A stretch of DNA of 52,861 bases from a virus (taxonomy: Duplodnaviria > Caudoviricetes): IMG/VR virus record IMGVR_UViG_3300033149_002181, positions 1 to 52,861 of that record, one strand, 5' to 3'. Of this stretch, positions 14,257 through 48,206 are shown piece by piece; the stretch's first letter is position 1; each line of letters begins with the position of its first letter. A model generated the notes under the pieces. The model searched no databases. It saw only the letters and a program-made list of their open reading frames with translations, and was not told the origin of the DNA. Both the position numbers and the translations under genes were made by a program.

Positions 14257-15141
14257 TTAAATCCTAACCGCAGTCTCTTTGCGGTACTGTTCATAAAGCT
14301 GCGGGTTTTCAGCCAGCACTTTCGCCAGCGCGTCCATCCTGCTTAAGTTGGCGTTTTTCTGCACTAACCCCGCTGCCATGGCCTCGACTTTGGCAACAGC
14401 GGAGTCGCCAGCGGGCATGCCGCCTCGGCCAATCTCAGCATAGAGCGCGCCTTTCTCGATGGCTTCACTGGCCGCCTTCAGCACACCTTCAAGCTTGGTA
14501 TATTCTTCCGGCGCCTTTTCAGCCAAACCCTTCAGCACCAAACCAAATTCTTCCGGCTTGGTCGGCAGGTTGGTAAAGTCAGTCGCGGCCTTTTGCACGA
14601 ACTCCTTGCGAAGCTGCTTGTCGCGTTCTTCCTTAAGCACCTTCTCAAGCTCTTCGGCTTTCTTGATGGCTTCCTGCTGCTCTTTCCAGAGTGCCTCTAC
14701 CGCAGGACGAACTTCTTCCGGAATACCGGAAAAGTCATAGCTTCCGTCTTCCTTTTTGGTCGGTGCAGGATAACCATATTTCTTCTTCTTGTCTTCTTCT
14801 TCCTCGTCTTTTTTGTCCTTAGCCTTCTCGGTCGGTGCAGGATAGCCGTAGCCGGCCAACTCGGCCAGAGTCTTCATGATGTCCTTGGGCAAGGAGTCCT
14901 TATAAGCGTTGAGTAGTCGTAAAGCGCCTTTGACTGCATTCTGTGCCTTGTCGGATAGCTTGGCTGCTTTCAGGACTTCCTCCACTTTCTGCTCATCTTC
15001 AAGTTCAGTTTCTAAAACAGCCTTAAGAATTTCTTCCATTGAACTTCCCTCCTCAGATTTGTAAATAAAAAAGCGCTTTTTTACAGCGCCTCTTGGTACA
15101 AGACTAACTTCTGGAATTTCTAAATCACTTAATTGGTACAC
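14257..15141 (-). CDS. Scaffolding protein with N-terminal XkdF-like EVSLV segment
   Basis: Charged coiled coil; N-terminus LSDLEIPEVSLVPRGAVKKRFFIYKS; two YGYPAPT repeats. Confidence 0.7.
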   Translation of the reverse strand: MYQLSDLEIPEVSLVPRGAVKKRFFIYKSEEGSSMEEILKAVLETELEDEQKVEEVLKAAKLSDKAQNAVKGALRLLNAYKDSLPKDIMKTLAELAGYGYPAPTEKAKDKKDEEEEDKKKKYGYPAPTKKEDGSYDFSGIPEEVRPAVEALWKEQQEAIKKAEELEKVLKEERDKQLRKEFVQKAATDFTNLPTKPEEFGLVLKGLAEKAPEEYTKLEGVLKAASEAIEKGALYAEIGRGGMPAGDSAVAKVEAMAAGLVQKNANLSRMDALAKVLAENPQLYEQYRKETAVRI

Positions 15142-15153
15142 ATAACCACCCTC

Positions 15154-18100
15154 TTACGCTATTTGGATGTCAATAAACTCCACCTCCGGTAACTTTGGTT
15201 TGTCAATTGAGGTCCTCACGCCAAAACCACCAACAGAATAACTTGTTAGCCTTCTTTCTTCGACCTCTTTCCATAATCCATCGGCCTGAATTTTACTGCC
15301 GAGAATCCATGCCCCGGAATGGAATATCTCTCCGCCGCACTTAACCCTGTACGCCCTATGTGGCTTCCCTTCCATCGCCTTCTGCCAGTCATCATATGAG
15401 GGGTACGGGAATAGATAACTCTCGACAGGCACAGCATCGGCCTTCTTATGATGTCGATAGCCTAACAAACGAGATTTGATCAGCCAATTATGTGCCACCT
15501 GCTCAACATCTGCTGGACTTACCCAATCGTCCTGGGAATCAACTTGATAGGGATCCAACGCTACACCATACACAATTCGTCGGGGCTGATCGATTTTAAT
15601 GATCGGAGCCTGGTACTCTTTAGCAATTTTCGCTTTTGCCACATCAATTTTCTGTACGGGCTTACCTGGTTCATCAGCCCAAAGTAACCATTTTTGACCT
15701 TTCTCTTTTAGTTCGCTTATGACATCAGCGAGTTTGTGCGTTTTTGTATATGGTTCCTGCGATTCTGGCCGGTTTACTAACCATACTCTTCGCCCCTGTC
15801 CCAACGGAGCATATTGTATAAGTAAACGGCCTTTCAAGTGTTTGCCGTTCAAAAAAAGTTCACGTCCGTGTTCCCGGGCAAAAGAAAACTTGTACTCGCC
15901 ACCGTCAAGTTTAAAAAACTTTGAATAAGTTTTGCTCGTAGACCCGGGGCCTCCGGGTTCAGAAATATACGGACCTTTATCTGTAATGGTTATCCACCTA
16001 ACAGGTTGGAACAGTTTGAACTGGCCTTGTAGACTGTCATCAGGCGGTAATTCAAGCAGACGACTTCCGTACTCCGTCTTACGGATGTCTTCGGTATCGC
16101 CCTCAAAGACTGAGAACCCCCAAGCTGTCTCATCGTCTATCTGGAAGCGCAGGTCGCCGTGGACACTATGGTTGGTTTTCAATAGCTCTTCGTGGCTAAG
16201 TTTGGTTTCTTCCTCGCTCAGCCCGCGCCAGTGCATCTGATAAACCCATCTGCCTCGTCCAGATTTCGGGTACATGTTGTGCCATTCTTCTTCATACAAC
16301 TTCTCCGCTATTTCAGCCCGAGTGTCGCCTTCCTCGCCTAAACGATCAGCTTTTTCCACCTGTTCTAGTGCACGTTTAATTTGCTTTAGCTTCCTCGCTA
16401 CCTCCCCGCTGTCCCCGAACCGCCTAACCGCCATCGGGTGAGGCAAAACAAAATCCGCTCTTTCACCTAGAGCGGACTTAGCGGTCTGACCTAACGCAAC
16501 TATAATTTGCGGATTGGCTTTGTCTAGTTCGTTAAACAGCCAATCGCGCCATTTTTCTATTTCTTCTTTGCTTGGTTCGCGCACCCGACCTTTTTCATCG
16601 GTCAGGAACTGGGGAACTGCATTGGTGAGAAACACTTCATTAGGCTTGAGACCCAACGGTTTCAAATAAAGTTCTTTAAATGTTTCCCCGCTGGGGCCGG
16701 TAAACGGTTCCCCCCTAGCTGCCTCAACCCGGCCGGGAGAGGCACCTACAAAGACTAGTTTTGCGTTTTTAGGTCCCCGACTGGGAACTATGTCCTGCAT
16801 CGATTTCTGAAGCACCTGCCCGCGCTTCGCAACATCGATAGCTTGAGCAGCAGTGTAAGGTTCTTTTCGAGTATCATCCACATCAATTACACGAGCTCCA
16901 AGCCAAGCGAGAACTTTCTTCTGTTCGTCCGGGATAAGCTCCAGCACCTCGCACGTGATAATGTCGCCAACCTTGGCCTTAATGTTTGTAGAAAACGTCT
17001 TACCTAAATCAATGTACTTCTTGCCGTTTAGTTCCCGAACGTTGCGCCACTCCATACCTACGCTCGGCAGGAGACCGCCCCAATAGTTGTAGTCTCCAGC
17101 TTTCGTGCGCTGTACGTCAAGCACGATAACTTTCAGCTCAATAACTCGCTTTAGCTTGAACCACTCGTCGGTGGCCCCGCTCAGTTCGTATTTACCTCCG
17201 GCAGACTTCGCTACTAGCCCCTCGGAGCGGTCCTGGTCGAACGCCCAGCGAGCGGCCACCTTAGCTTCCTGTGGCGTCTTGCACCATTTCAAGGGAGAAA
17301 TAGTTAACAGCTTTCTGAGGTTCAGCGACTCCAATATCTTGCGCCTTTCCTTGAACGGTTTATCGCTCAAATCTTCTCCCCAGTACGGCACATCAAAGAC
17401 CGTCAAAATAGGCGTCTCGTTTTCAGCGAACTCTGGTTTCTCGCGGTTGAACTTCATTAGATCTGGCCTTGCCACCCGCTTACCGTCGCGCAGCATGCCC
17501 AAGTCGCAGTCTAGGATAAAGTCAGCGTTAAGCTTTTCCAAGACCGCTTTTATCTCGGGGAATTTGTGCAGTTGGTCTTTGCCATATTGCCCCTCAAACC
17601 AAAGCCGTAGCTGGCTGCCCTTTTTTTCGGCAATGCTCCTGAAACCATTATGCTTCGGCTCTACAGCTATCGGCCAGCGGTTTTTTGCCCACTCTAGCAG
17701 TTCGTCTATGGTGTAAGCTTCTGTGTATTCGGCCATGCTCGGTTTGGGCGGTACAAACTTCTCAAATGGCTCCAACCCCGCCTTGCTTACTGTCTCCGGC
17801 TTACGTAATATACCTCGGACATAAACCAAATCGTCATTCTGGATTTCCTCCAGCTTCTCAACCTCGAACTTCGGGCGGCCTTCAAGTAGGTTATCCTGCG
17901 TCCAAAAGACGAAGGTGGACTTATTCCAAAAGCTCTTGTGGTCGGGGTGGTTAAACGCGCCCTCTCCTTTCGTACTCGGCACTTCGAAGACAAACTTGCC
18001 GCCGGGCTTTAAAACCCGGTGGATTTCGACCATGATGTGCTCTTTATCCGCGAGATGCTCCAGGACGTGGTTTGCGCGTATTTCATCCGCGCTGTCGTCA

Positions 18101-18939
18101 GGATAGGGTATACCCTGCTCTAGGTCATATACTACATCAACCTGCGGGCCCGGTTCTTTATCGATTCCCGTATAGCCGTCGGGTTTAGAATCGCCACAGC
18201 CGAGATCTAGTTTAAGTGCGTCTCCTTTCACTACTTGGCGTCTCGGTTCCTCGCGCCGGAGAACTAGCGAGTAGCACGGTATGAAATCTGCATGGCTGCC
18301 TTGTGGCGAATCTATAAAATGGAGTATTCCTTTTTTCTCGGGGTCAAGCACCTTTCGCACCGGTAGCCAGACATTATCTGCATGGATCAGAAAGTTCTCA
18401 CCAGATTTATCCCTGTTTGCCCTGAATAGTACATCTATATCTTCCGGGTTTTCCTTGCCCACGGCTGCTGATCCCACAACAGAGACAAAGTTAGGAACAA
18501 CAACCACTTCCTGCGGCAGGCTTGCCAATTTCGTCTCTATACTCTGGGCTTTTTTCACGTCCTGGAGCTTCTTTGCTTCCTGCACCAGTTCACTGTTTTC
18601 GTCGTAGTCAAAGCCCCGGTGATCGAATTCCTCCATTACCCAGATGGCGGCATTGACAATCTCCTCCGCCGGTTCTTTACGTTTCTTGGCCGCACTATAC
18701 CACTGGTGCAGTCTAAGCCACGCTTGCCTTACCTCTTCATCCGGCGCCTCTTTTAGCTTATCAGGCCGTATTTCAGCCAGAGCCATTTTTTCTAAAAAAG
18801 ACGGTTCCTCCGGCTCGCGCCATCGGGCCTTACCACCAGCAGCGGGAAGAGCGGCCTGATGTATAGCGTTCCAGGCCCAGTCTGGAAGCAGCTCCTTTGC
18901 TTTTTCTAGAGCTGTCTCAAGGTATTCTTTGCTTGGCAT
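15154..18939 (-). CDS. Multidomain head-module protein: NTase, SAM methyltransferase, ATP-dependent DNA ligase, UDG-like, LigD phosphoesterase-like and XkdF-like protease domains
   Basis: VVGS...EDIDVLF; LDLGCG...HVLEHL...LKPGG; EPKHNGFR, FDV, EGLVAK, WFKLK plus OB fold; FVGASPG, TNAV, HP; QMH...HGDLRF; RRIVYGVALDP...SYSVGG. Confidence 0.82.
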   Translation of the reverse strand: MPSKEYLETALEKAKELLPDWAWNAIHQAALPAAGGKARWREPEEPSFLEKMALAEIRPDKLKEAPDEEVRQAWLRLHQWYSAAKKRKEPAEEIVNAAIWVMEEFDHRGFDYDENSELVQEAKKLQDVKKAQSIETKLASLPQEVVVVPNFVSVVGSAAVGKENPEDIDVLFRANRDKSGENFLIHADNVWLPVRKVLDPEKKGILHFIDSPQGSHADFIPCYSLVLRREEPRRQVVKGDALKLDLGCGDSKPDGYTGIDKEPGPQVDVVYDLEQGIPYPDDSADEIRANHVLEHLADKEHIMVEIHRVLKPGGKFVFEVPSTKGEGAFNHPDHKSFWNKSTFVFWTQDNLLEGRPKFEVEKLEEIQNDDLVYVRGILRKPETVSKAGLEPFEKFVPPKPSMAEYTEAYTIDELLEWAKNRWPIAVEPKHNGFRSIAEKKGSQLRLWFEGQYGKDQLHKFPEIKAVLEKLNADFILDCDLGMLRDGKRVARPDLMKFNREKPEFAENETPILTVFDVPYWGEDLSDKPFKERRKILESLNLRKLLTISPLKWCKTPQEAKVAARWAFDQDRSEGLVAKSAGGKYELSGATDEWFKLKRVIELKVIVLDVQRTKAGDYNYWGGLLPSVGMEWRNVRELNGKKYIDLGKTFSTNIKAKVGDIITCEVLELIPDEQKKVLAWLGARVIDVDDTRKEPYTAAQAIDVAKRGQVLQKSMQDIVPSRGPKNAKLVFVGASPGRVEAARGEPFTGPSGETFKELYLKPLGLKPNEVFLTNAVPQFLTDEKGRVREPSKEEIEKWRDWLFNELDKANPQIIVALGQTAKSALGERADFVLPHPMAVRRFGDSGEVARKLKQIKRALEQVEKADRLGEEGDTRAEIAEKLYEEEWHNMYPKSGRGRWVYQMHWRGLSEEETKLSHEELLKTNHSVHGDLRFQIDDETAWGFSVFEGDTEDIRKTEYGSRLLELPPDDSLQGQFKLFQPVRWITITDKGPYISEPGGPGSTSKTYSKFFKLDGGEYKFSFAREHGRELFLNGKHLKGRLLIQYAPLGQGRRVWLVNRPESQEPYTKTHKLADVISELKEKGQKWLLWADEPGKPVQKIDVAKAKIAKEYQAPIIKIDQPRRIVYGVALDPYQVDSQDDWVSPADVEQVAHNWLIKSRLLGYRHHKKADAVPVESYLFPYPSYDDWQKAMEGKPHRAYRVKCGGEIFHSGAWILGSKIQADGLWKEVEERRLTSYSVGGFGVRTSIDKPKLPEVEFIDIQIA

Positions 18940-21134: not shown

Positions 21135-22484
21135 TTATCGCCTCCAGCGGCTTTCACCGTCGATGCCAACAGGCGAGAGAATCGGCGTCTGCATGCCAGA
21201 CTTTACTGCCCAGCATGCTAATGCCAGACTCATCACACAGTCGTCATGCCGACCTTCCGGTGCTTCGGGCCGTACGTTCATTCCACGTCGTACCCGCCGG
21301 AAAAATCGAAGCTCATCCCTTATGGTTGTATTACTTGTCGGTAGAAGCAGCTTTTTTTGTTCGACCTGGATCATCAAGTTTGAAATAAGCTCCTCTCGGC
21401 TGCGTTGCGTGAATACAAACGGCACGCAGTCCTGTACCTGCTCCGCTACAGGATCGCCTACGCCCGTAGCATCAAGATAAACCTTAGCCGCATACTTTGA
21501 CTGCAGATTGTTCACTTGGGCCACAATATCACCGTAAAGCCTGCTGCGGTAGCGATACCACTCGACGATCCTGTATGGTGTCATTGTTATGTCCAATACT
21601 GTTATAACCGTGTAATCTTGATATTTTGCTAAATCCACACCGATGCTGTATACATGGCCTTGCTCCCGCGCGCCCTCAGGTCTATAATCTTCAAACACGT
21701 GCTGGAGAACTGACCAAGGAAAAACTATTGTATCGTCATCGATGAACTCCGCTAAGTACTCTACCCGGAAAGCTAACTCAGGAACTTCTTTGCGAATTCG
21801 TTCAACTTCTTCCAAATCCAGACGGGGGTTATCGAAAACCGTGGCATGAAAGCTTCGGTAGTAACCACTGGCATCATTTAACCCCTGTTGATAGAGCTGA
21901 TATATATATCCCTGGTTACCGTTAGGTGTGGTTTCAGCCCGGATTTTCCCTTTCCGATCTAGAACCATAGCCCTAATGACATCGTTATAAACTTTATCCT
22001 TTACGAATGCAGCTTCGGTAATGACAACTCCATCCGCACCTTTACCTCGGAGATAAACCCCGTCCCGGGCAGTAGACCGCGCCATAATCCGGCTCCCGTT
22101 GATAAGTTCAACTTTCGGAAAAGGAGACCACTTAAATTTTTTCCCCGGCACCAAAATGGAAAGCAGCGGGTTTTCCATCCGCTGCTCAAGCTCGCTAAAA
22201 TATATTTTCGCCTGATCCATACTGGGAGCCGTGATATACCAGCGCTGTTTTTGCTTAGTGGCGCATTCATGAAGTATATCCACCAAGGTAGTTAAAGTTT
22301 TACCGAAGCGTCGGCCAGCTACTTTTACTGAGACCTTGCCACCCAAGTTAACCGCCTTGGACTGTTTTTCTTCCAAAACCACGCCTAGAAACTTTTCAGC
22401 GAAATAAACTTTATCATTGCGACACCTTTTAAGCACATCTCTGGCCTTCCGTTGTTGCTCAACCGTCCATATCATCATCATCAT
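21135..22484 (-). CDS. terL: Terminase large subunit
   Basis: Walker A AGRRFGKT, LRG..AD, TTPNG motif C, nuclease GVDLA, DATGVG and HDDCVMSLALA; start probably in the MMMM run (22475-22484). Confidence 0.93.
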   Translation of the reverse strand: MMMMIWTVEQQRKARDVLKRCRNDKVYFAEKFLGVVLEEKQSKAVNLGGKVSVKVAGRRFGKTLTTLVDILHECATKQKQRWYITAPSMDQAKIYFSELEQRMENPLLSILVPGKKFKWSPFPKVELINGSRIMARSTARDGVYLRGKGADGVVITEAAFVKDKVYNDVIRAMVLDRKGKIRAETTPNGNQGYIYQLYQQGLNDASGYYRSFHATVFDNPRLDLEEVERIRKEVPELAFRVEYLAEFIDDDTIVFPWSVLQHVFEDYRPEGAREQGHVYSIGVDLAKYQDYTVITVLDITMTPYRIVEWYRYRSRLYGDIVAQVNNLQSKYAAKVYLDATGVGDPVAEQVQDCVPFVFTQRSREELISNLMIQVEQKKLLLPTSNTTIRDELRFFRRVRRGMNVRPEAPEGRHDDCVMSLALACWAVKSGMQTPILSPVGIDGESRWRR

Positions 22485-22965
22485 CCCAAAGTGATTGAAA
22501 AGCGTCGACCAAACGGGATTGCGGGTCATCACCGATAAGTTCTTGCCGTGTTCGCATTGCCTGGCGTATTTCGCTCTGCAACTTCTCCCGTAGCTGGACC
22601 AGTGCAAGTGGCGGATTTCTCCTCTCTTTAATGAGGTCTTTTAGCCAAGCTTGTGTTGCTCGACTAAGTTCATAGTTATCCGTTATAGTAGCATCCAATA
22701 TTTCAACGTCACTCAGCCTTTTCTTGACCTGCTGTTGCATTTGTTCCTGGCTCTTCCAGTACTGCTCCCTAACTTCAGCTTTAATGTCAAAATGTTCATT
22801 CATGTGTTTCCAGATGGACTGGTGGCTTATTTTTTCCCCATGATCTTCAAACAGCTTTACAGATGCGGCTCTGGGACTAAGACCTTCCTCTTTGCACCAT
22901 TTTTCTATTTCAGCCCGGCGCTGACTGTTGCATACCTTGCACCGGGAAGAATATCCAGTCGGCAC
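22459..22965 (-). CDS. Putative terminase small subunit
   Basis: Directly upstream of terL; CKVC...H..H plus HTH-like region; GTG start at 22965 after AGGAGGTGG. Confidence 0.65.
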   Translation of the reverse strand: MPTGYSSRCKVCNSQRRAEIEKWCKEEGLSPRAASVKLFEDHGEKISHQSIWKHMNEHFDIKAEVREQYWKSQEQMQQQVKKRLSDVEILDATITDNYELSRATQAWLKDLIKERRNPPLALVQLREKLQSEIRQAMRTRQELIGDDPQSRLVDAFQSLWDDDDDMDG

Positions 22966-22989
22966 ACCGGGCCACCTCCTTGTTCGTTG

Positions 22990-23065
22990 TTCGTGTTCGT
23001 GTTGTTTGTGTTCGTGTTGTTTGTGTTCGTGTTGTTTGTGTTCGTGTTGTTTGTGTTCGTGTTCG
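22990..23065. repeat. 15-bp tandem repeat (gttcgtgttgtttgt), about 4 copies plus partials
   Basis: Read directly from the sequence; lies upstream of the terS RBS. Confidence 0.9.
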
Positions 23066-23092
23066 ATTGCCCAGCACGTTCTTGCCCAATAG

Positions 23093-23118
23093 AAAAACCC
23101 TGCCGTTATGACAGGATT
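23093..23118 (-). terminator. Intrinsic terminator-like hairpin upstream of terS
   Basis: CCTGTC-ATAAC-GGCAGG then GTTTTT on the minus strand. Confidence 0.55.
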
Positions 23119-23330
23119 GGAGTTTCGCGCCCCAAACATTGCCCGGAGCTTTGCCAGAACCTAAGACTCATCTTGTGATACGGGTCACGATACACCTCCG
23201 CGACAGTCACCTGTAACCGGGCAGTTAGGACTATGGCTCGTATCACATAATGGTCCCTTAACATTTTTTAGTTTCGGGGGTTTACTCACCTACCCACCAT
23301 TCGGTGTATCAGTGAAACCATTTTATTATA

Positions 23331-23462
23331 GTGATACGGGCAAGGATTTGCACCTTGCATGATAACGCAAACCACTTAGATAGGGGTCTAAGTCCCTTTG
23401 ACACATTCCTTAATGCGCTATCTAACCTCCACCAGCGTCTACCTATTCCGCCACCGTATCAC
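23331..23462 (-). ncRNA. tRNA-like structured RNA lacking a canonical anticodon arm
   Basis: 9-bp acceptor-like stem GTGATACGG/CCGTATCAC; Leu-type D arm TGGCGGAATAGGTAGACGC; T arm GCAAGG-TGCAAAT-CCTTGC; branched insert of about 75 nt. Confidence 0.75.
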
Positions 23463-24309: not shown

Positions 24310-25002
24310 TTACCATCCTTTTCGGATAGCTCTCTCTGATACCACTATAGCACAGAAACATACCCTCTGTAGTATTGAATTTGTATGGAACGTGATTTTT
24401 TTAACAAAACATCGATACTTCGGGGAAAATAGAGATATTATGTATGCCCAGACATCCTCCCCTTTCCAACCAAAAACCGGTCGGCATTTCCATATTTCCT
24501 CCGTCTTTGAAAAATAAAACAATCCATATTTACCACTGTATTTTCGGCCTAAACTTTCCTCTCCTCGTAAACCAAATATTAAACAATCTATATCAAATTC
24601 GTTAATTGCTTTCTTTATACCGGCCATTAAATTATTTTTTAAAATTTCACGTTTGATATTACTTAACCCGCCTGCTTCCCGATATATTTCAAAAATTTCT
24701 TTCGGCGTTTTAACTCGATGATAATTCAATTTATACTTTTGCGCATAATTATCATACATTTCAACAGCTTCTTCTAAATCTCCGCCTTGACCCCGATCGA
24801 TATTTATAATCAATATATCCGGCTTAATCTGCCTTGCAATATCCACACAAACAAGACTATCTTTGCCAAAACTAAAACTAACTGCTGGATTTCGGCATGT
24901 TTTAATCGCTTGTTTAAGCGCATTTTGCGCTTCTTCCAAGCGGCGCTTAAATCTTGGTAATAACGCTGTCATAAAATACTGATCTTTTTGCCATTGTTCC
25001 AT
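24310..25002 (-). CDS. cysH: CysH-like PAPS reductase family protein associated with type IV-B Cas; C-terminus possibly truncated
   Basis: PP-loop VSFSFGKDS, GLRGEES..R and CRPVFGWKGEDVWAYI motifs. Confidence 0.85.
   Translation of the reverse strand: MEQWQKDQYFMTALLPRFKRRLEEAQNALKQAIKTCRNPAVSFSFGKDSLVCVDIARQIKPDILIINIDRGQGGDLEEAVEMYDNYAQKYKLNYHRVKTPKEIFEIYREAGGLSNIKREILKNNLMAGIKKAINEFDIDCLIFGLRGEESLGRKYSGKYGLFYFSKTEEIWKCRPVFGWKGEDVWAYIISLFSPKYRCFVKKITFHTNSILQRVCFCAIVVSERAIRKGW
24344..24390 (-). promoter_or_regulatory. Putative late promoter (extended -10 TGCTATAGT)
   Basis: TGn-TATAGT without a clear -35, pointing towards the packaging genes. Confidence 0.4.
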
Positions 25003-25871
25003 CTCCTATACCCCCAGACAGTGTAAAGAATCATCGGCATAACAATAAATATCCGCGCCGTCGCATACCATGTCCATATCTGCGTCGCTGTTTTAGTTGC
25101 AAATAATGGCCATGAAAATAATGCGGCAACGGATATAACAACTGCCAATATGTCACCAGATAGATCTTGCAATGCCGCAATACATGAATCGAGTGTCGAC
25201 GTTGCCACGGCTATGATTATAATCGCAAATAATATTTGTGAAATTGCGCCTTGAGATAGAAAGGCGAAAAATACCAGGCTTAAATATAGGCCAAAAGCCA
25301 AAGATGCCAAAAGCCACGGATTGACACCTTTAATCCTTTCTGCACGTTGAAATTGCTGGCCGTCGAGAAATGGCCCGGCCATCAATCCTATACAAGCAGA
25401 TACAACCCAGCTAACATTAACCGGCTGATAATTTAAAACATTAAGATTAAATTTGCCTGTCAAAATAACAAGCACCAATCCACCAACCATAGCTAAATAT
25501 TGCCATTGATCACTTTCAACAGAAAACTTAAATTTATATTTATATGTCAGAAGAAATATTATGGTCGCGACAGTAGTTGCCCATCCGTTGCCAATATAAG
25601 TTGCCATGATCCTAATATTAATCCATATACAAAATATTTGTATCCCAATCATAGCTAATTTGATAAATATACTATTCTTTAATTTGATATAACCCGGATA
25701 TTTTCTTACGAACGCCCCATAAATAAATAGTGATAAAATGTTACATACCGCCCATGGCAGAAAAGAATGTAAGCCCATAGTTTTTAAAATACTAAAGCTC
25801 ACGCCCAAACTAACTCCCCAGGCCCAGGAAGCGGCTGCACTAATACCTAATTTAAACTGTTTGATTTGCAT
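24969..25871 (-). CDS. Polytopic membrane protein, sodium:solute symporter-like
   Basis: About 9-10 hydrophobic segments; SAAASWAWG, SVESDQWQY, GPFLDGQQFQRA and STLDS resemble SSS-family motifs. Confidence 0.6.
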   Translation of the reverse strand: MQIKQFKLGISAAASWAWGVSLGVSFSILKTMGLHSFLPWAVCNILSLFIYGAFVRKYPGYIKLKNSIFIKLAMIGIQIFCIWINIRIMATYIGNGWATTVATIIFLLTYKYKFKFSVESDQWQYLAMVGGLVLVILTGKFNLNVLNYQPVNVSWVVSACIGLMAGPFLDGQQFQRAERIKGVNPWLLASLAFGLYLSLVFFAFLSQGAISQILFAIIIIAVATSTLDSCIAALQDLSGDILAVVISVAALFSWPLFATKTATQIWTWYATARIFIVMPMILYTVWGYRRWNNGKKISIL

Positions 25872-26526
25872 TGCATGCTAACCTCCGATCGTTTGGTATT
25901 AATACTCTCGTCCACTGCCACGCAAGCCAATATGGTGAACGAATACCCATTTCAACATCTCCGTTTTCATCGGGAATGGCCCGGAGGTAAGAAAGATCCT
26001 CCGGCCACTCCCCGACTGTCCAACGTACCACTCGTCCAAACCCCTGGCTACGTTTTTTACCGATGTGAGTCACGTATTTTAGCAATATTTCTATTTTGTT
26101 TTTTTCTCCTACTGCATACCATTCCAGCTTTGGCATAAGATATGTCACCAGCGGCATTCGATAGTTTTTATATTGACCTGACTTAACATTGACCTTTCCG
26201 CGTTTTTTGCCGAAGTCAATGTATTTCTGCGCGTCATCAAAATCCAATCTTTTATGCCAGTGCACTATCTCTTCGCGTTGCGGTTTTCCGCAGGCAAACG
26301 AACAAGCCCAATACCAGTCATCATCTTCGCCTCGTTTTTCAAGCGGTAAATCAGGGACTATTAAATTTTCCGGCATAATACTGCTTTGAGAAGCAATCAT
26401 AGCTTCAGGGTGATTCAATCTAATCCAAACCTCAGCCAGAATTGAGTCGAGAGGCAGAAAAAGATCATATGTTGCTATTTTCCCAGTCTGCATATATGCA
26501 GTAATTTTCAGTGGTTGCATATTCAT
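25852..26526 (-). CDS. csf3: Type IV CRISPR-associated Csf3 (Cas5 group RAMP)
   Basis: PLKITA...LPLDSILA, WACS, G.YKNYRMP, WYAVG, G-rich loop IGKKRSQGFGRV, RSPYW. Confidence 0.88.
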   Translation of the reverse strand: MNMQPLKITAYMQTGKIATYDLFLPLDSILAEVWIRLNHPEAMIASQSSIMPENLIVPDLPLEKRGEDDDWYWACSFACGKPQREEIVHWHKRLDFDDAQKYIDFGKKRGKVNVKSGQYKNYRMPLVTYLMPKLEWYAVGEKNKIEILLKYVTHIGKKRSQGFGRVVRWTVGEWPEDLSYLRAIPDENGDVEMGIRSPYWLAWQWTRVLIPNDRRLACNANQTV

Positions 26527-27506
26527 CCTCCTATGGCGCGAATTAACGAGTCTCGTTTTTCCTCCAGATACCCAGCGTATCGGTTGAGAAACTCATCATA
26601 TTTCACCTTCGCGTCCTTCGCCGATTCAGCGAGAAAACATTTTCCGTCAGCCACACTCAAAAACGGTTCTTTTCCTTCGCCGAATAGCTCAATTTGCATA
26701 TCGACTTTTACTTTTCCCATTCCGATCCGTGCCTGTCCGCCGATGTATGGCTGCTTGGACCATTCAACGATTGCTGCCACGAAGGCGCCGAGCTCAATTT
26801 CGGTCATATCCTGAAAGACGGTTTCCTGCCATAACACAGAACCCCGGCATAATACCTCAATCATGTACCGCATCTGCTCTGGTCTATCTTTCTTCTTCTC
26901 TTTCTTCTCGTCTCCTGAGTCAAGCATCAAGGCGGCTTGTCCGCCGGTAAGTTTCGGAGTGTCATCGCTCTGGAGATATGGCCGGAGCAGATCATCTTTC
27001 GCATCGTCCTTCCGGCTATAACTAATTTCCGTTGTCATTTGCCGCCATGATAATTTCCGGTTCCCGGGAACCTCCTGTGGTATAATATGCGCCAGCTCTC
27101 TGCACACCGGCAACCCCTCACCAACAGCCAATTTCCCGGGCAACAGCATGTTTCCGACTCCACCGCCGAACACTGACAGGTGGGGTATTTGCTCCCTTAT
27201 CCGCCGTGCCTGATCAATATCGATTGACTGATCGCCACCGATTGCTCCACCTGAGAAAAACAGATAAAACATCTCAAGCGGAATCTGTAACGTTACACCG
27301 CTCCCTAATTTGTCCAGCATGTACCGGGCTCCCGAATCCCGCCACACGCCACGCAGAGCGTTCCCGGAGTATACGAATACCTGAGCGATATTTCCCTCCG
27401 CGTCCAGAATGTCCTGGGTTGACAAGTATGAATTCGGTCCGATACTCTCCCCAATATGCGATAAGGGACTTAATAGTGTAAAAACCGTTTCTATTCTACC
27501 GTTCAT
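26523..27506 (-). CDS. csf2: Type IV CRISPR-associated Csf2 (Cas7 backbone)
   Basis: LLSPLSH, YSGNALRG, LFFSGG, SVFGG, G-loop IGGQARIGMG; start MNGRIE at 27506 with GGAGGAG RBS. Confidence 0.9.
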   Translation of the reverse strand: MNGRIETVFTLLSPLSHIGESIGPNSYLSTQDILDAEGNIAQVFVYSGNALRGVWRDSGARYMLDKLGSGVTLQIPLEMFYLFFSGGAIGGDQSIDIDQARRIREQIPHLSVFGGGVGNMLLPGKLAVGEGLPVCRELAHIIPQEVPGNRKLSWRQMTTEISYSRKDDAKDDLLRPYLQSDDTPKLTGGQAALMLDSGDEKKEKKKDRPEQMRYMIEVLCRGSVLWQETVFQDMTEIELGAFVAAIVEWSKQPYIGGQARIGMGKVKVDMQIELFGEGKEPFLSVADGKCFLAESAKDAKVKYDEFLNRYAGYLEEKRDSLIRAIGG

Positions 27507-27981
27507 AAATAATCTCCTCCTCGTCTTCTTTGATAATTCCACTGACCTCAAGCGGTTTTTCTCTTTCAAGCCGGTCGCGGACTAACGCAATTACCCATGA
27601 TGTTTTTTGATATAAAATCTCCAGAATCGGTCCATGGTTCACTTGCTCCAGAATCCCAACCCAAAATTGCCGACGGCCTTTGTCTTGTTTTTGAATCAGC
27701 TCGCCGGTTTCTCTATCGACCGCCATTGTTATTGTTTCCGGGTCAGTCGCCATCCACTTGGGTTTCAGAGTAGAGCACATCAGCCGGGGTTTGAGTTTTT
27801 CGATGAAATCATGTAGATCTAACGCCCGCTTTGCGCTGCTCTTGCAAGCCCTCTCAATAATTCCCCACATGTCAGGGGTTACTTTAAAACGTTTCATGTC
27901 ACGGCTTCTGTAAATGCCGTATATAATTAAAGCCCCGATAGCCGCGTCTTCTGAATTCGTCTCGAATCCGTAATACATCAA
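27496..27981 (-). CDS. cas11: Putative Cas11 small subunit of the type IV-B complex
   Basis: 161-aa helical protein directly upstream of csf2, where IV-B loci carry the small subunit. Confidence 0.6.
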   Translation of the reverse strand: MMYYGFETNSEDAAIGALIIYGIYRSRDMKRFKVTPDMWGIIERACKSSAKRALDLHDFIEKLKPRLMCSTLKPKWMATDPETITMAVDRETGELIQKQDKGRRQFWVGILEQVNHGPILEILYQKTSWVIALVRDRLEREKPLEVSGIIKEDEEEIIYER

Positions 27982-28394
27982 ATTTCCTCCTCTCGCCTTT
28001 TAATCTCATTTAAAAATCCCGTTTTACGTGCTATTTTAAGGATCCGCGCAGGATTCATACAAAAAGACAGCACTTTCAAAACCTGCTGTTTTTCTGGATC
28101 ACCGCGGATCGCTGCCCTCCGTCGACTAAAAAATATTTCCACCGCATTCTGGCTACGATTAAGCCTCCTGGCTATGTAATCATAACTTTTACCCATTGAG
28201 TATAACTTGATCGCAATTTCTTTTTCCAGCTCTGTCCATCGGCGGACGGGCCGGCGGATAATGCCTGCTTTTTTTAGGTATCGTTCAACAGTGGTATGAG
28301 AGATATTAAGCACTGAAGCTGTTTGACGGATAGTTTTCCCGCCTTGAATCAAAAGAATAATCTTCTGTCGTTTTGCGTCGCTTATTTTTTGCAT
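27978..28394 (-). CDS. Double-HTH DNA-binding protein
   Basis: Two HTH-like units (GKTIRQTASVLNISHTTVERY; GKSYDYIARRLNRSQNAV); likely start MQKIS. Confidence 0.7.
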   Translation of the reverse strand: MQKISDAKRQKIILLIQGGKTIRQTASVLNISHTTVERYLKKAGIIRRPVRRWTELEKEIAIKLYSMGKSYDYIARRLNRSQNAVEIFFSRRRAAIRGDPEKQQVLKVLSFCMNPARILKIARKTGFLNEIKRREEEI

Positions 28395-28506
28395 TTTGCG
28401 CCCCTTCCCGCTCTTTAATATTGTCACTATTGGTAAGTGAGATTCCAAGCCATATGCTTTGTAAATTGCCTAACTGCGTGCGGAGTCACAAAATATTTTC
28501 CGGCTA

Positions 28507-29187
28507 TCATTTTTCCTCCCGCTGCGCTATAAATAGCGCTAATTGAAATAAGCTGCTTCTCCGTACCGGCGCTATGGTTTTTTCAAGTTGTTCCCAACGT
28601 TCCAAACCGAATTCCCGGATTCGGTGGCTCTGATATTGTCCTGTTTCTATTTCCTTTTTTGTAAATACCTGATATAACGACTCAATGATATTAAGCAGGT
28701 CTTTAAATCGTCCAGGCACCACCATAACGTCATAATTATCCATCCTGACAGTAAATTTCTGATTCGACAAATTAACCTTCGCCTTGAAATGCAGCCACCT
28801 TTGCCCCGACTCCGCTACCGTCATTAAAAACGGTGGTTTGGGTGGTTGCAACAACGTTTCGCGAATTTGCAGTCGTGACAGGTGATATAACCCGTTCCCT
28901 GTCGCCAGCAGAGAATAATTTCTCAATTCCCTATACGACAGAGCCCATATGCAGTGTTCGCAAACCATCTCTGACCACGGGATTTTCGCCAGATCATGAT
29001 CGGTAAATGTCGGTTTAATGATTTTCTTTTTCGGGTGGCCTGTTTCAGGACGACATCCGCAAAGCCAACATTGCCCAGATAGTTTTCCCTCCGGCGCAGG
29101 ATCATAATGGACTGTTTTCCCACTCGGTGTTTCTATGTTGGGCTTCCGCATCGCTGCACAATACAAAAAATCAACAGAGCAAACCAT
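28507..29187 (-). CDS. csf1: Type IV CRISPR-associated Csf1 (Cas8-like large subunit)
   Basis: CWLCG...TFTD...VCEHC zinc finger; PPKPPF...SGQRWLHFKAKVN; first gene of the csf operon. Confidence 0.82.
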   Translation of the reverse strand: MVCSVDFLYCAAMRKPNIETPSGKTVHYDPAPEGKLSGQCWLCGCRPETGHPKKKIIKPTFTDHDLAKIPWSEMVCEHCIWALSYRELRNYSLLATGNGLYHLSRLQIRETLLQPPKPPFLMTVAESGQRWLHFKAKVNLSNQKFTVRMDNYDVMVVPGRFKDLLNIIESLYQVFTKKEIETGQYQSHRIREFGLERWEQLEKTIAPVRRSSLFQLALFIAQREEK

Positions 29188-46066: not shown

Positions 46067-47197
46067 GTGGCCGGTAAGGGCTCGCTGGTCGAAAAGAATG
46101 GTAAGTGGTATCTAGTTTTAAGTATCAACGAAGGCGGTGGTAAATACCGTCAGAAGTGGCTTGCTCTCAAGGCAAAAACAAAAGCCGAAGCTAAAAAGGA
46201 ACAAAATCTTATCTGGGCCGAGCGAGAACGCGGAGAATGGGTGGAACCGGCTAAGATCACCGTGAACGAGATTTACGAACGGTGGATTTATCATCTTCGA
46301 AACCGGGCGAAACCGGCTGGCCGGCGGACGATAGAAGAGTATGAAAAAATATATCGAAACCACATCCGAGATTACTTGGGTCATGTAAAAATTCAGAAAC
46401 TGACCGCTAAGATGGTCCGGGAATTAATAGAATCGAAAGACAGCCCGCATAAGGCGCGTCGCACTTATGACGTGTTGAATGCCATGCTTAACCTGGCATA
46501 TAAGGATGGGGACACCGGAATTAAAGAAAATGTCTGCAAAAGGTTGACTCCGCCGAAACTCGAAAAGGGAGCCCCAGCATATTGGACGGCTGAACAGTGT
46601 AAACGGTTCCTCGCTGCCCTCCGGGATCACCGATACTATGCAGTTTTCCTTTGCGCCATGACTACTGGTATGAGGATCGGGGAAGTATTAGGGTTAAGGT
46701 GGCAAGACATTGATTTGAGGAAAAAAATTCTGTACGTAAATCAGAAGCTGGAAGCGAAGGAAAAAGGGAATCCTAAAATACAGATCGGGAATCCCAAAAC
46801 AAAAGCATCAAAAGCTCCAATTTTAATGACCGACTTACTAATAAAGGAGTTAAAAAGGGTCAAAGAGCGCCAGATGTTTGAAAAATCGGGGTATCTCGAA
46901 GAGTATGAGGATTTCGATTTTGTATTTAAGAATTTAAAAGGTGGGCCGGTTAACCTTGAATACCTGCGTCGGAAAGTCATGAATAAGGTAATTCGGGAAA
47001 TCGGCCTGCCGAGAATCCGAGTTCATGACCTCCGGCATTCTGCGGCAACTCTCCTCCGAAGTATGGGTGTGGACATACGGACTATCCAACGTTATCTCCG
47101 ACACGCCGATCTTTCCGCCACTCAAATATATACCCACGACGACGATGTGGAATTCTTGAGAGATGCGACGGAAAAAATGAACCAAGCCCTTCAATGA
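46067..47197 (+). CDS. int: Tyrosine integrase
   Basis: TGMRIGE, HDLRH, LRHA and TQIYTH catalytic motifs; N-terminal arm-binding and SAM-like domains. Confidence 0.96.
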   Translation: MAGKGSLVEKNGKWYLVLSINEGGGKYRQKWLALKAKTKAEAKKEQNLIWAERERGEWVEPAKITVNEIYERWIYHLRNRAKPAGRRTIEEYEKIYRNHIRDYLGHVKIQKLTAKMVRELIESKDSPHKARRTYDVLNAMLNLAYKDGDTGIKENVCKRLTPPKLEKGAPAYWTAEQCKRFLAALRDHRYYAVFLCAMTTGMRIGEVLGLRWQDIDLRKKILYVNQKLEAKEKGNPKIQIGNPKTKASKAPILMTDLLIKELKRVKERQMFEKSGYLEEYEDFDFVFKNLKGGPVNLEYLRRKVMNKVIREIGLPRIRVHDLRHSAATLLRSMGVDIRTIQRYLRHADLSATQIYTHDDDVEFLRDATEKMNQALQ

Positions 47198-47903: not shown

Positions 47904-47926
47904 ATTTTTCCCTCCTTTTTTTTATT

Positions 47927-47988
47927 TTGGCCTGCCTCATCAGCGGTGGGCGGCCAACCTCACCGGACGCCCTGAAGGGCGTTTCGGC
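47927..47988 (-). ncRNA. Type II hammerhead ribozyme
   Basis: GCC-GAAA-CGCCC TTCA GGGCG-TC^-CGGTG...CACCG-CTGATGA-GGC; loop TTGGCC pairs with 3' GGCCAA. Confidence 0.92.
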
Positions 47989-48206
47989 TATTCTACGAAG
48001 TCCGTATCCCCGTCTGGCAACATACGGTATGTGCCAGACTTAATCCGGAAACTTCGATGATCGAAGTTTTCTGGACACCCGATGTGGAATTCGCCGTCGG
48101 TCTGGTCAAATTCCAAAATGTCTAATGGGGCTCCGCATTCGGGGCAGCGGAGATTTTCCAACCCTTCCGTGGAGCCATTCCGTTTGAAAATGACAGTGTA
48201 AATCAT
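47988..48206 (-). CDS. Small zinc-ribbon protein
   Basis: CPECG...C....H; RBS GGAGG. Confidence 0.55.
   Translation of the reverse strand: MIYTVIFKRNGSTEGLENLRCPECGAPLDILEFDQTDGEFHIGCPENFDHRSFRIKSGTYRMLPDGDTDFVE

What the first reader, a model, noticed from the sequence alone, without database searches (positions are those of the whole stretch)
24310..29187. Phage-encoded, array-less type IV-B CRISPR-Cas effector module
Seen: csf1, HTH, putative cas11, csf2, csf3, membrane protein and cysH, mostly with overlapping stop/start codons. No cas1, cas2, cas6, dinG or CRISPR array is visible anywhere in an apparently complete genome. Known: type IV-B loci lack arrays, associate with cysH-like genes, occur on mobile elements and have no established function. 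Inference: expressed at the early-to-late transition, it may capture host crRNAs (anti-CRISPR sponge), use non-CRISPR RNAs, or target the CysH enzyme to nucleic acid.
Basis: partly seen in the sequence, partly recalled or inferred. Interest (0 to 1): 0.88.

Follow-up and report, generated by a model that had tools for sequence, protein, structure and literature searches.

The report
Array-less type IV-B module in phage
A temperate phage carries a real CRISPR-less type IV-B Cas gene set, a kind already known from prophages, here joined to a transporter-like membrane gene and a damaged cysH-like gene.

Summary
On the minus strand, 24310-29187 encodes Csf1, a tandem-HTH protein, Cas11, Csf2, Csf3, a membrane protein and a CysH-like protein. 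Type IV profiles match strongly (E 1e-37 to 6e-63). No Cas1, Cas2, Cas6, Csf4/DinG or repeat array was found in the 52.9-kb record, which CheckV rates 100% complete.

The window is a temperate siphovirus-like phage. The module lies between the late regulator and the packaging genes.

It is not a new kind. IV-B loci on prophages with cysH are in print. I found Csf2 relatives on 39 IMG/VR contigs, and a complete unannotated set in the isolated Skermania phage SPI1.

- The membrane protein has a LeuT/APC transporter fold. It belongs to a small family that sits directly beside a CysH-like gene in 17 of 19 evaluable loci, sometimes without any csf genes.
- The window's CysH keeps 57 of 59 conserved positions up to residue 194 and 0 of 18 after it.
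- The membrane-CysH pair has lower G+C and different nearest relatives than the csf genes, so it looks exchanged.

Function remains inferred.

The parts
28507..29187 (-). csf1 (type IV large subunit, Cas8-like), 226 aa, with two CxxC pairs
   Evidence: PADLOC Csf1_0_IV 1.3e-41. NCBIfam TIGR03114 1.1e-20, 74 bits, below the 140-bit cut-off. The CxxC pairs are read from the translation.
27978..28448 (-). tandem helix-turn-helix protein, 156 aa, probably the module's DNA-binding regulator
   Evidence: Pfam HTH_38 4.1e-11, two stretches. NCBIfam Cbp1 6.6e-9, far below cut-off. Homologues at 42-57% identity lie upstream of csf1 in L041, L042 and L048.
27496..27981 (-). cas11 (type IV small subunit), 161 aa
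   Evidence: PADLOC Cas11_2_IV 2.1e-37 and PDLC01183 1.6e-36.
26523..27569 (-). csf2 (Cas7 backbone subunit); likely true start is the ATG at 27506 (327 aa)
   Evidence: PADLOC Csf2_0_IV 6.3e-63. 416 homologues, which align from about residue 22. A profile of 32 relatives hits PDB Cas7c 11fs at 1.3e-23 and the IV-B Csf2 7jhy at 1.3e-22.
25852..26526 (-). csf3 (Cas5), 224 aa
   Evidence: PADLOC Csf3_0_IV 7.2e-46. NCBIfam TIGR03116 1.1e-21, 77.5 bits, below the 140-bit cut-off.
24969..25871 (-). 300-aa helical membrane protein with a LeuT/APC-superfamily transporter fold; a recurrent neighbour of CysH-like genes
   Evidence: No family in four HMM libraries. AF2 model pLDDT 89.7. Foldseek against PDB returns AdiC 2.9e-4, CHT1, SGLT2, CodB and Nramp. 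The ESM Atlas structure search gives SSF/urea transporter TM 0.86.
24310..25002 (-). cysH-like (CasCysH) PP-loop enzyme gene, 230 aa; core conserved to about residue 194, C-terminal segment degenerate and about 22 aa short
   Evidence: Pfam PAPS_reduct 3.1e-16. 71% identity to P0143 over residues 1-205 only, with no match to the rest in any frame. 57 of 59 conserved columns kept before residue 195 and 0 of 18 after.

Best explanation
The window is a complete or near-complete temperate siphovirus-like phage. It carries a genuine, array-less type IV-B effector operon at the end of its early/replication gene block, just upstream of the packaging genes.

Shown:
- Intact csf1, cas11, csf2 and csf3.
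- A tandem-HTH gene inside the operon.
- No nuclease, helicase, adaptation gene, cas6 or array found in the record.

Inferred by homology to the solved Mycobacterium sp. JS623 IV-B complex: Csf2 and Cas11 build an RNA-bound helical filament, with Csf3 and Csf1 at its ends. This particle binds nucleic acid but cannot cut it.

Output of the system. I take the output to come from a separable two-gene accessory cassette. One gene is a CysH-like PP-loop (adenine-nucleotide alpha-hydrolase) enzyme. Its relatives do not align to the C-terminal end of PAPS reductase, where the catalytic cysteine lies. It would therefore use ATP to adenylate something rather than reduce sulfate. The other gene is a LeuT-fold membrane protein that travels with it.

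State in this phage. The cassette has different nearest relatives and lower G+C than the csf genes. Its CysH has lost its conserved C-terminal segment, so the accessory arm may be weakened or dead.

Biological role (inferred, about 30%): competition with other mobile elements or with host defence during the lytic programme, not adaptive immunity of the phage's own.
For: Identity.
- Type IV profile matches for all four Cas proteins, E 2e-37 to 6e-63.
- The Csf2 profile hits the solved IV-B Csf2 7jhy at 1.3e-22.
- Tightly packed, overlapping genes.

Absences.

Phage context.
- Major head protein 3e-90, portal 3e-87, TerL 1e-44, tape measure, DnaB 1.5e-95, integrase 3e-73.
- Endolysin and anti-repressor.
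- RusA and a phrog_36 regulator directly upstream of csf1.

Same core operon elsewhere. My jackhmmer labelling of 73 related loci (39 IMG/VR, 34 genome contigs) found Csf2 in 73, Cas11 in 71, Csf3 in 70, Csf1 in 66 and CysH in 59. Many loci are cut by contig ends.

Position. I scanned 91 ORFs lying within 3.5 kb downstream of the module in 33 distinct viral loci. 12 match the phrog_36 regulator, 9 match terS phrog_4581 and 9 match HNH phrog_144. Upstream, 5 of 115 ORFs match Holliday-junction resolvase phrog_190.

CysH.
- The PP-loop and 57 of 59 conserved core columns are kept.
- An intact relative models at pLDDT 93.1. Its nearest folds are PAPS/APS reductases, then the FAD synthase PAPS domain, CysD, TtuA and TilS.
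- The HMMER alignment of the family to PAPS reductases stops before the chains' C-terminal end.
- The review passage states that the catalytic cysteine is absent in IV-B CysH (PMC8175902).

Cassette behaviour.
- Csf proteins are closest to L041, L042 and L048 (56-81% identity). CysH is closest to L045 and L047 (53-55%).
- G+C is 0.42-0.50 for the csf genes, 0.38 for the membrane gene and 0.35 for cysH.

Membrane-CysH linkage: 17 of 19 evaluable distinct loci.

RNA-filament model: passages of PMC7937560.
Against: - NCBIfam's curated equivalog cut-offs are not reached: Csf1 74 of 140 bits, Csf2 57 of 130, Csf3 77.5 of 140.
- No Csf2 tree against reference subtypes was built. The Csf2 profile scores the IV-C Cas7c (11fs) slightly above the IV-B Csf2. 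Subtype therefore rests on gene content.
- The RNA-filament model comes from one distant actinobacterial system in which Csf1 and Csf3 were not resolved.
- cysH is degenerate here (0 of 18 conserved C-terminal columns). The module may therefore not work as in relatives.
- The host is unknown. TerL was not found in the five MAGs that hold the nearest modules.
- The promoter scan was no better than shuffles: 26 sites against a mean of 20.7.
- Nothing here shows what CysH adenylates, or that the membrane protein transports anything.
Confidence: 0.55

Rival explanations
1. crRNA capture. The phage Csf complex loads host-made crRNAs. It either soaks them up (anti-CRISPR sponge) or uses them as borrowed guides.
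For: The module has a full Cascade-like subunit set but no array or cas6 of its own. 4 of 5 MAGs that carry the nearest related modules encode Cas1 elsewhere, so crRNAs exist in such cells. Some related phage loci carry a Cas6 gene between csf3 and cysH: PF10040 at 2e-12 and 6e-13 in L017 and L029. That suggests repeat-RNA handling in part of the clade. The idea is in print (PMC7038947).
Against: In the one system tested, co-expressed type I-E crRNAs were scarcely loaded and the bound RNA was heterogeneous (PMC7937560). The authors of PMC7038947 found no neighbouring arrays and judged the sponge idea unlikely for its complexity. Five MAGs is a small, incomplete sample with no baseline. The idea does not explain the nearly invariant CysH or its membrane partner.
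Confidence: 0.15
2. Signal-and-effector system. On nucleic-acid binding by the Csf particle, the CysH-like enzyme makes an adenylated small molecule. The LeuT-fold protein is the membrane effector that responds, giving abortive infection or superinfection exclusion, as with the membrane effectors of type III systems.
For: There is tight, often overlapping adjacency of the membrane gene and a CysH-like gene in 17 of 19 evaluable loci, in both gene orders. The pair also occurs without csf genes in L075, L080 and L087, so it behaves as a self-contained unit. A 2026 paper's introduction cites a proposal that CasCysH AMPylates substrates or makes second messengers (PMC13676074).
Against: Only 8 of 59 CysH-bearing loci from the Csf2-based search have the membrane gene, so it cannot be the general output of IV-B. 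LeuT-fold proteins are carriers, not known ligand-gated pores. No ligand site or signalling product is shown.
Confidence: 0.12
3. Nucleic-acid modification. The CysH-like enzyme adenylates a base or phosphate on RNA or DNA held by the Csf filament. A small amine or amino acid imported by the LeuT-fold carrier is then attached, in the manner of the PP-loop tRNA modifiers.
For: Structural neighbours of the intact relative include the tRNA-modifying PP-loop enzymes TtuA, NcsA and TilS. The best PDB matches of the membrane protein are amino-acid, amine and nucleobase carriers: AdiC, CHT1 and CodB. Epigenetic or modification roles for IV-B CysH have been proposed.
Against: PAPS/APS reductases are much closer than the tRNA modifiers (E 3e-11 against 1e-7 or weaker). 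No substrate-binding residues were examined. The membrane partner is absent from most IV-B loci.
Confidence: 0.1
4. Decaying cargo. The module is a hitch-hiking remnant that no longer functions in this phage.
For: cysH has lost all 18 conserved C-terminal columns and ends about 22 residues early. The cassette region has low G+C, 0.35-0.38 against 0.449 for the genome.
Against: All four cas genes and the membrane gene are open and match their profiles or relatives over nearly their full length. The CysH core keeps 57 of 59 conserved columns. Gene overlaps are preserved.
Confidence: 0.08

Closest known systems
Type IV-B CRISPR-Cas of Mycobacterium sp. JS623 megaplasmid (Csf complex, PDB 7JHY)
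   Same: The gene set is csf1, cas11, csf2, csf3 with no array and no cas6. The Csf2 family profile matches 7jhy Csf2 at 1.3e-22. It is carried on a mobile element.
   Different: It is carried by a plasmid rather than a phage, in an actinobacterial host. The window has an HTH gene inside the operon and a LeuT-fold membrane gene between csf3 and cysH. The window's cysH is C-terminally degenerate.
Skermania phage SPI1 (KR011061.1), Orf40-Orf44, all annotated 'hypothetical protein'
   Same: It is an isolated tailed phage with csf1, cas11, csf2, csf3 (PADLOC 2e-28, 6e-15, 1e-66, 2e-36). These are followed by a CysH-like gene (hhalign probability 98.7% to the CasCysH alignment over 228 columns, C-terminus included).
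   Different: Csf2 is only 31.8% identical. There is no HTH or membrane gene inside the operon. Its CysH-like protein is full length. I found no paper in the held library that links this phage to CRISPR.
Prophage- and plasmid-borne IV-B loci with cysH (Shmakov et al. 2018; Pinilla-Redondo et al. 2020)
   Same: Array-less IV-B with cysH on predicted prophages, some with HTH genes. The sponge, modification and alternative-function ideas are already stated there (passages).
   Different: The words membrane, transporter and permease do not occur in the main text of PMC7038947, and 'membrane' does not occur in the review PMC8175902.
Fuxivirus (Bathyarchaeia virus) type IV-B
   Same: A virus-encoded csf1, cas11, csf2, csf3 set plus a CysH-like gene next to csf3 (passages of PMC10848311).
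   Different: It is an archaeal virus and has a two-repeat mini-array. The window has none.

Membership tests
[quoted passage not shown] | Csf2 (type IV Cas7) | tested here: met
   PADLOC Csf2_0_IV 6.3e-63. The profile hits solved Csf2/Cas7c chains. NCBIfam TIGR03115 gives only 56.6 bits against a 130-bit cut-off.
[quoted passage not shown] | Csf3 (Cas5) and Csf1 (large subunit) | tested here: met
   PADLOC 7.2e-46 and 1.3e-41. NCBIfam equivalogs match at 1e-21 and 1e-20 but below their curated cut-offs.
Subtype IV-B | Cas11 small subunit present | tested here: met
   Cas11_2_IV 2.1e-37.
Subtype IV-B | No DinG (Csf4) helicase and no Cas6/Csf5 | tested here: met
   TIGR03117: 0 matches. PF01881, PF10040 and PF08798: 0 matches. 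The PDLC01265 hit lies inside csf3. RecD (IV-D) and Cas10-like (IV-C) profiles were not searched; Csf1 occupies the large-subunit position.
Subtype IV-B | No CRISPR array and no adaptation genes | tested here: met
   Searches find no array. Cas1 and Cas2 give 0 matches. This holds for this record only; it is classed 'linear' with no terminal repeat.
Subtype IV-B | Adjacent cysH-like gene of the Cas-associated clade | tested here: inconclusive
   A PAPS_reduct domain and PP-loop are present, with 53-71% identity to relatives in csf loci. The conserved C-terminal segment is lost. No CysH tree was built.
Subtype IV-B | Csf2 falls in the IV-B clade of a reference phylogeny | not tested
   No reference set of subtype-labelled Csf2 sequences was at hand. 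PDB scores do not separate IV-B from IV-C.
PAPS reductase (CysH) enzymes | C-terminal catalytic cysteine | tested here: not met
   The alignment of 24 relatives to solved PAPS reductases ends before the chains' C-terminus. The review states that the cysteine is absent in IV-B CysH. The window lacks the whole segment. That the cysteine sits in the extreme C-terminal motif is recalled.
LeuT-fold / APC superfamily transporters | Helical core with the LeuT fold | tested here: met
   AF2 pLDDT 89.7, 12 helical elements. Foldseek probability is 1.00 to AdiC, CHT1, SGLT2, CodB and Nramp, with TMq 0.5-0.74. Atlas TM is 0.86 to SSF urea transporters.
LeuT-fold / APC superfamily transporters | Membership of a described sequence family, or conserved substrate or ion sites | tested here: not met
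   No Pfam, NCBIfam or PHROG family was found. Identity to PDB hits is 9-16%. Binding-site residues were not examined.

The most novel reading that the evidence does not exclude
[quoted passage not shown] If so, the long-sought output of IV-B runs through the membrane or through an imported small molecule. Either CysH makes an adenylated signal that acts on the membrane protein, or the carrier supplies the amine or amino acid that CysH attaches to nucleic acid held by the Csf filament. This would give the first concrete biochemical handle on IV-B function.
Probability: 0.2. Interest if true: 0.8.

Novelty: new variant of a known kind. Interest (0 to 1): 0.5.

Why it matters
Type IV-B is the CRISPR-Cas subtype whose function is still unknown. 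Passages of a 2026 paper say so.

This phage adds no new kind of system. It and its relatives do show three things:
- IV-B is common in tailed-phage contigs, at a position shared by a subset of them, just before the packaging genes.
- The cysH arm is an exchangeable cassette.
- That cassette often includes a transporter-fold membrane protein, which I did not find mentioned in the IV-B papers I could search.

The pairing points experiments at CysH together with a membrane partner, rather than at the Csf particle alone. The isolated Skermania phage SPI1 offers a cultivable phage that carries the core module.

Tried and rejected
- Near-identical DNA in GenBank phages: none.
- Csf2 as a single protein against IMG/VR: no relatives found. 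The alignment-based scan was needed.
- Public sequencing runs for the module: none was listed and no RNA holder was listed.
- Complex prediction on the intact nearest pair (membrane protein P0122 with CysH P0143, both as alignments): no verdict, score 0.23 against a mark of 0.32. I draw nothing from it.
- Host search: the window's TerL was not found in the five MAGs that hold the nearest modules. The host remains unknown.
- Promoter and terminator scan: promoter-like sites were no more frequent than in shuffles.
- Possible mini-arrays. The 28-nt pair at 14751/14823 (86% identical) lies inside a head-region ORF. I take it for a coding repeat. The 3-copy repeat at the edge of L005 is a 54-nt tandem repeat, not an array.
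- Simple frameshift in cysH: rejected. tblastn with two intact relatives finds no match to the missing C-terminus in any frame.
- tRNA-like element at about 23338-23456: ARAGORN with and without intron mode, and Rfam at E<=5, found nothing. It stays unexplained.
- Supplementary files of the IV-B surveys were not opened. They may list neighbours such as the membrane gene.

Full report
**What is there.** The minus strand of 24310-29187 holds seven tightly packed genes.

| Gene | Coordinates | Main evidence |
|---|---|---|
| csf1 | 28507-29187 | PADLOC Csf1_0_IV 1.3e-41 |
| tandem HTH | 27978-28448 | Pfam HTH_38 4e-11, two stretches |
| cas11 | 27496-27981 | PADLOC Cas11_2_IV 2.1e-37 |
| csf2 | 26523-27569 | PADLOC Csf2_0_IV 6.3e-63 |
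| csf3 | 25852-26526 | PADLOC Csf3_0_IV 7.2e-46 |
| membrane protein | 24969-25871 | no family in four libraries |
| cysH-like | 24310-25002 | Pfam PAPS_reduct 3.1e-16 |

NCBIfam's type IV equivalogs also match Csf1, Csf2 and Csf3 (1e-20, 2e-15, 1e-21), but all stay below their curated cut-offs. Csf2 homologues align from about residue 22, so the true start is probably the ATG at 27506. Five of the six junctions overlap by 4 to 34 nt.

**What is absent.** No spaced repeats were found in the record by the repeat finder, TRF or my own k-mer scan. Searches of the record found no Cas1, Cas2 or Csf4/DinG. Three Cas6 families (PF01881, PF10040, PF08798) also gave nothing. A weak PADLOC Cas6 hit lies inside csf3 and reflects RAMP similarity. 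RecD and Cas10-like profiles were not searched.

**The carrier.** The window is an IMG/VR virus record. CheckV rates it 100% complete, but it is classed 'linear' and has no terminal repeat.
- PHROG matches identify major head protein, portal, large terminase, tape measure, tail proteins, DnaB helicase, SbcC-like nuclease, methyltransferase and integrase.
- Further matches identify an endolysin and an anti-repressor.
- Read as a circle, the order is integrase, regulators, replication, RusA, phrog_36 regulator, IV-B module, terminase, head, tail, lysis, and back to integrase. The linear record is opened between the tail and lysis genes, not at the attachment site. This fits a whole, circularly permuted temperate phage genome.
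- The host is unknown. The nearest modules are in Bacillota MAGs, but the window's TerL was not found in five of those MAGs.

**How common it is.**
- Csf2 has 416 homologues in the large protein collection.
- An alignment-based scan found relatives on 39 IMG/VR contigs and 34 genome contigs. By the C-terminal 200 residues of Csf2, 33 of the 39 viral loci are distinct.
- My jackhmmer labelling of these 73 loci found Csf2 in 73, Cas11 in 71, Csf3 in 70, Csf1 in 66, CysH in 59, an HTH relative in 28 and the membrane protein in 8. Many loci are cut by contig ends, so absences are soft.
- PHROGs already holds Csf2-like and Csf3-like families of 'unknown function'.
- The isolated Skermania phage SPI1 carries csf1, cas11, csf2, csf3 and a full-length CysH-like gene, all annotated as hypothetical.

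**Position in phage genomes.** I scanned 91 ORFs lying within 3.5 kb downstream of the module in the 33 distinct viral loci. Twelve match the phrog_36 regulator, nine match small terminase phrog_4581 and nine match HNH phrog_144. Upstream ORFs are more mixed. Five of 115 match a Holliday-junction resolvase (phrog_190), and others match D5-like regulators, HNH endonucleases and endolysins. A subset of relatives therefore shares the window's position at the replication-to-packaging junction.

**State of knowledge.**
- Passages of Shmakov et al. (bioRxiv 10.1101/270033) and Pinilla-Redondo et al. (PMC7038947) describe array-less IV-B with cysH on plasmids and predicted prophages. They already raise the sponge, modification and non-defence ideas.
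- A virus-borne IV-B in archaeal viruses was reported in 2024 (PMC10848311).
- The only structure, 7JHY, shows a Csf2/Cas11 filament on heterogeneous RNA, with Csf1 and Csf3 unresolved (PMC7937560).
- Passages of a 2026 paper still call the function unclear and cite a proposal that CasCysH AMPylates targets or makes messengers (PMC13676074).
- For all of these I read search listings and matched passages only, not whole texts or supplements.

**New point 1: cysH is damaged.**
- Twenty-four relatives are about 252 aa long and share a conserved C-terminal segment.
- The window's protein keeps 57 of 59 columns that are at least 90% conserved up to residue 194. It keeps 0 of 18 after that and stops about 22 residues early.
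- tblastn with intact relatives finds no trace of the missing part in any frame.
- The family's nearest solved folds are PAPS/APS reductases, then other PP-loop enzymes including TtuA and TilS. Its alignment to PAPS reductases ends before their C-terminal end. This agrees with the review's statement that the catalytic cysteine is missing.

**New point 2: the membrane protein.**
- It models with high confidence (pLDDT 89.7) as a LeuT/APC-type carrier. Foldseek matches are AdiC, CHT1, SGLT2, CodB and Nramp. The ESM Atlas structure search gives SSF urea transporters at TM 0.86.
- The family is small: 297 representatives at E<=1e-3 among 1.84 billion.
- Across all fetched loci I counted 21 distinct family members besides the window's.
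  - Seventeen lie directly beside a CysH-like gene, in either order.
  - One has a CysH-like gene 1.2 kb away (L075).
  - One has none (L090).
  - Two end at a contig edge and cannot be scored (L084, L092).
- Thirteen of the 21 loci also hold csf genes. L075, L080 and L087 have the pair without csf genes in the 1.6-4.1 kb available upstream. In L087 the partner is a PAPS_reduct + DUF3440 protein.
- As indirect support, eight membrane/CysH homologue pairs share the same longest-contig length.
- These loci were found by searching with Csf2 or with the membrane protein itself, so the sample is not unbiased.
- The words membrane, transporter and permease do not occur in the main text of PMC7038947, and 'membrane' does not occur in PMC8175902. 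A search for IV-B + CysH + transmembrane returned four papers and listed two. Neither listing concerns such a link, and I did not open their transmembrane passages.

**New point 3: modular exchange.** The window's Csf1, Cas11, Csf2 and Csf3 are closest to L041, L042 and L048 (56-81% identity). Its CysH is closest to L045 and L047 (53-55%), which share the csf3-membrane-cysH order. G+C falls from 0.42-0.50 in the csf genes to 0.38 in the membrane gene and 0.35 in cysH. The HTH gene lies upstream of csf1 in the three nearest relatives, but between csf1 and cas11 in the window.

**Relatives with Cas6.** Some related loci carry a Cas6 gene between csf3 and cysH. L017 and L029 match PF10040 at 2e-12 and 6e-13, and L027 has a Cas6e-like PF08798 gene. 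ORFs with the same C-terminal pattern occur in L020, L023, L056 and L062 by my reading. No array was found within the flanks fetched for these loci, up to 8 kb on each side.

**Mechanism.**
- Shown: the gene content and its conservation.
- Inferred by homology: an RNA-bound Csf2/Cas11 filament with Csf3 and Csf1, and no cutting activity.
- Inferred from fold and motifs: CysH-like ATP alpha-hydrolysis, that is, adenylation.
- Inferred from linkage: the membrane protein works with CysH.
- The biological role is a guess. My odds are about 30% for competition with other elements or with host defence. The rivals are crRNA capture (0.15), a signal plus membrane effector (0.12), nucleic-acid modification with an imported amine (0.10) and decay (0.08).
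- Four of five MAGs with the nearest modules encode Cas1. This keeps crRNA capture possible but is a small sample with no baseline.

**Verdict.** The claimed novelty is overstated. The added value lies in the CysH-membrane cassette and in the damaged cysH.

Noticed in passing
window 47926-47989, minus strand: A type II hammerhead ribozyme match (Rfam RF02276, 51.4 bits against a gathering score of 37, full-length model). It lies in the gene-poor stretch just downstream of the integrase gene (46067-47197), near where attP would be expected.
   Followed up: no
window about 23338-23456, minus strand: A tRNA-like element lies between the XRE-like ORF and the ORF upstream of TerL. It has an acceptor-like stem of 10 pairs, a D-arm-like 5' part and a T-arm-like hairpin, but about 70 nt where the anticodon and variable arms should be. 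Fold energy is -43.9 kcal/mol, z -2.16. ARAGORN (with and without intron mode) and Rfam at E<=5 find nothing. The resemblance to a class II tRNA is recalled.
   Followed up: partly
L017:9652-10305, L029:9618-10334, L027:8957-9562 (also L020, L023, L056, L062): Related phage and Bacillota IV-B-like loci carry a Cas6 (PF10040) or Cas6e-like (PF08798) gene between csf3 and cysH. No repeat array was found within the fetched flanks.
   Followed up: partly
L075, L080, L087: The LeuT-fold membrane gene sits beside PAPS-reductase-like genes with no csf genes in the available upstream flanks. In L087 the partner is PAPS_reduct + DUF3440, 447 aa.
   Followed up: partly
window 22986-23063 (inside ORF 22459-23139, minus strand): A 15-nt tandem repeat of 5.2 copies encodes a run of HEHKQ pentapeptides near the N-terminus of the 226-aa protein just upstream of TerL. 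That protein matched no PHROG. A terminator-like hairpin at 23118-23096 lies inside its predicted 5' end.
   Followed up: no
window 15154-18939, minus strand: A 1261-aa ORF in the head region has partial PHROG matches to DNA ligase-like, methyltransferase and head-maturation-protease families. It may be a large multidomain virion-associated protein.
   Followed up: no
L025 and L059: These loci show a second csf1-like and csf3-like gene pair directly after the first csf3. In L059 the pair is followed by cysH and the membrane gene.
   Followed up: no
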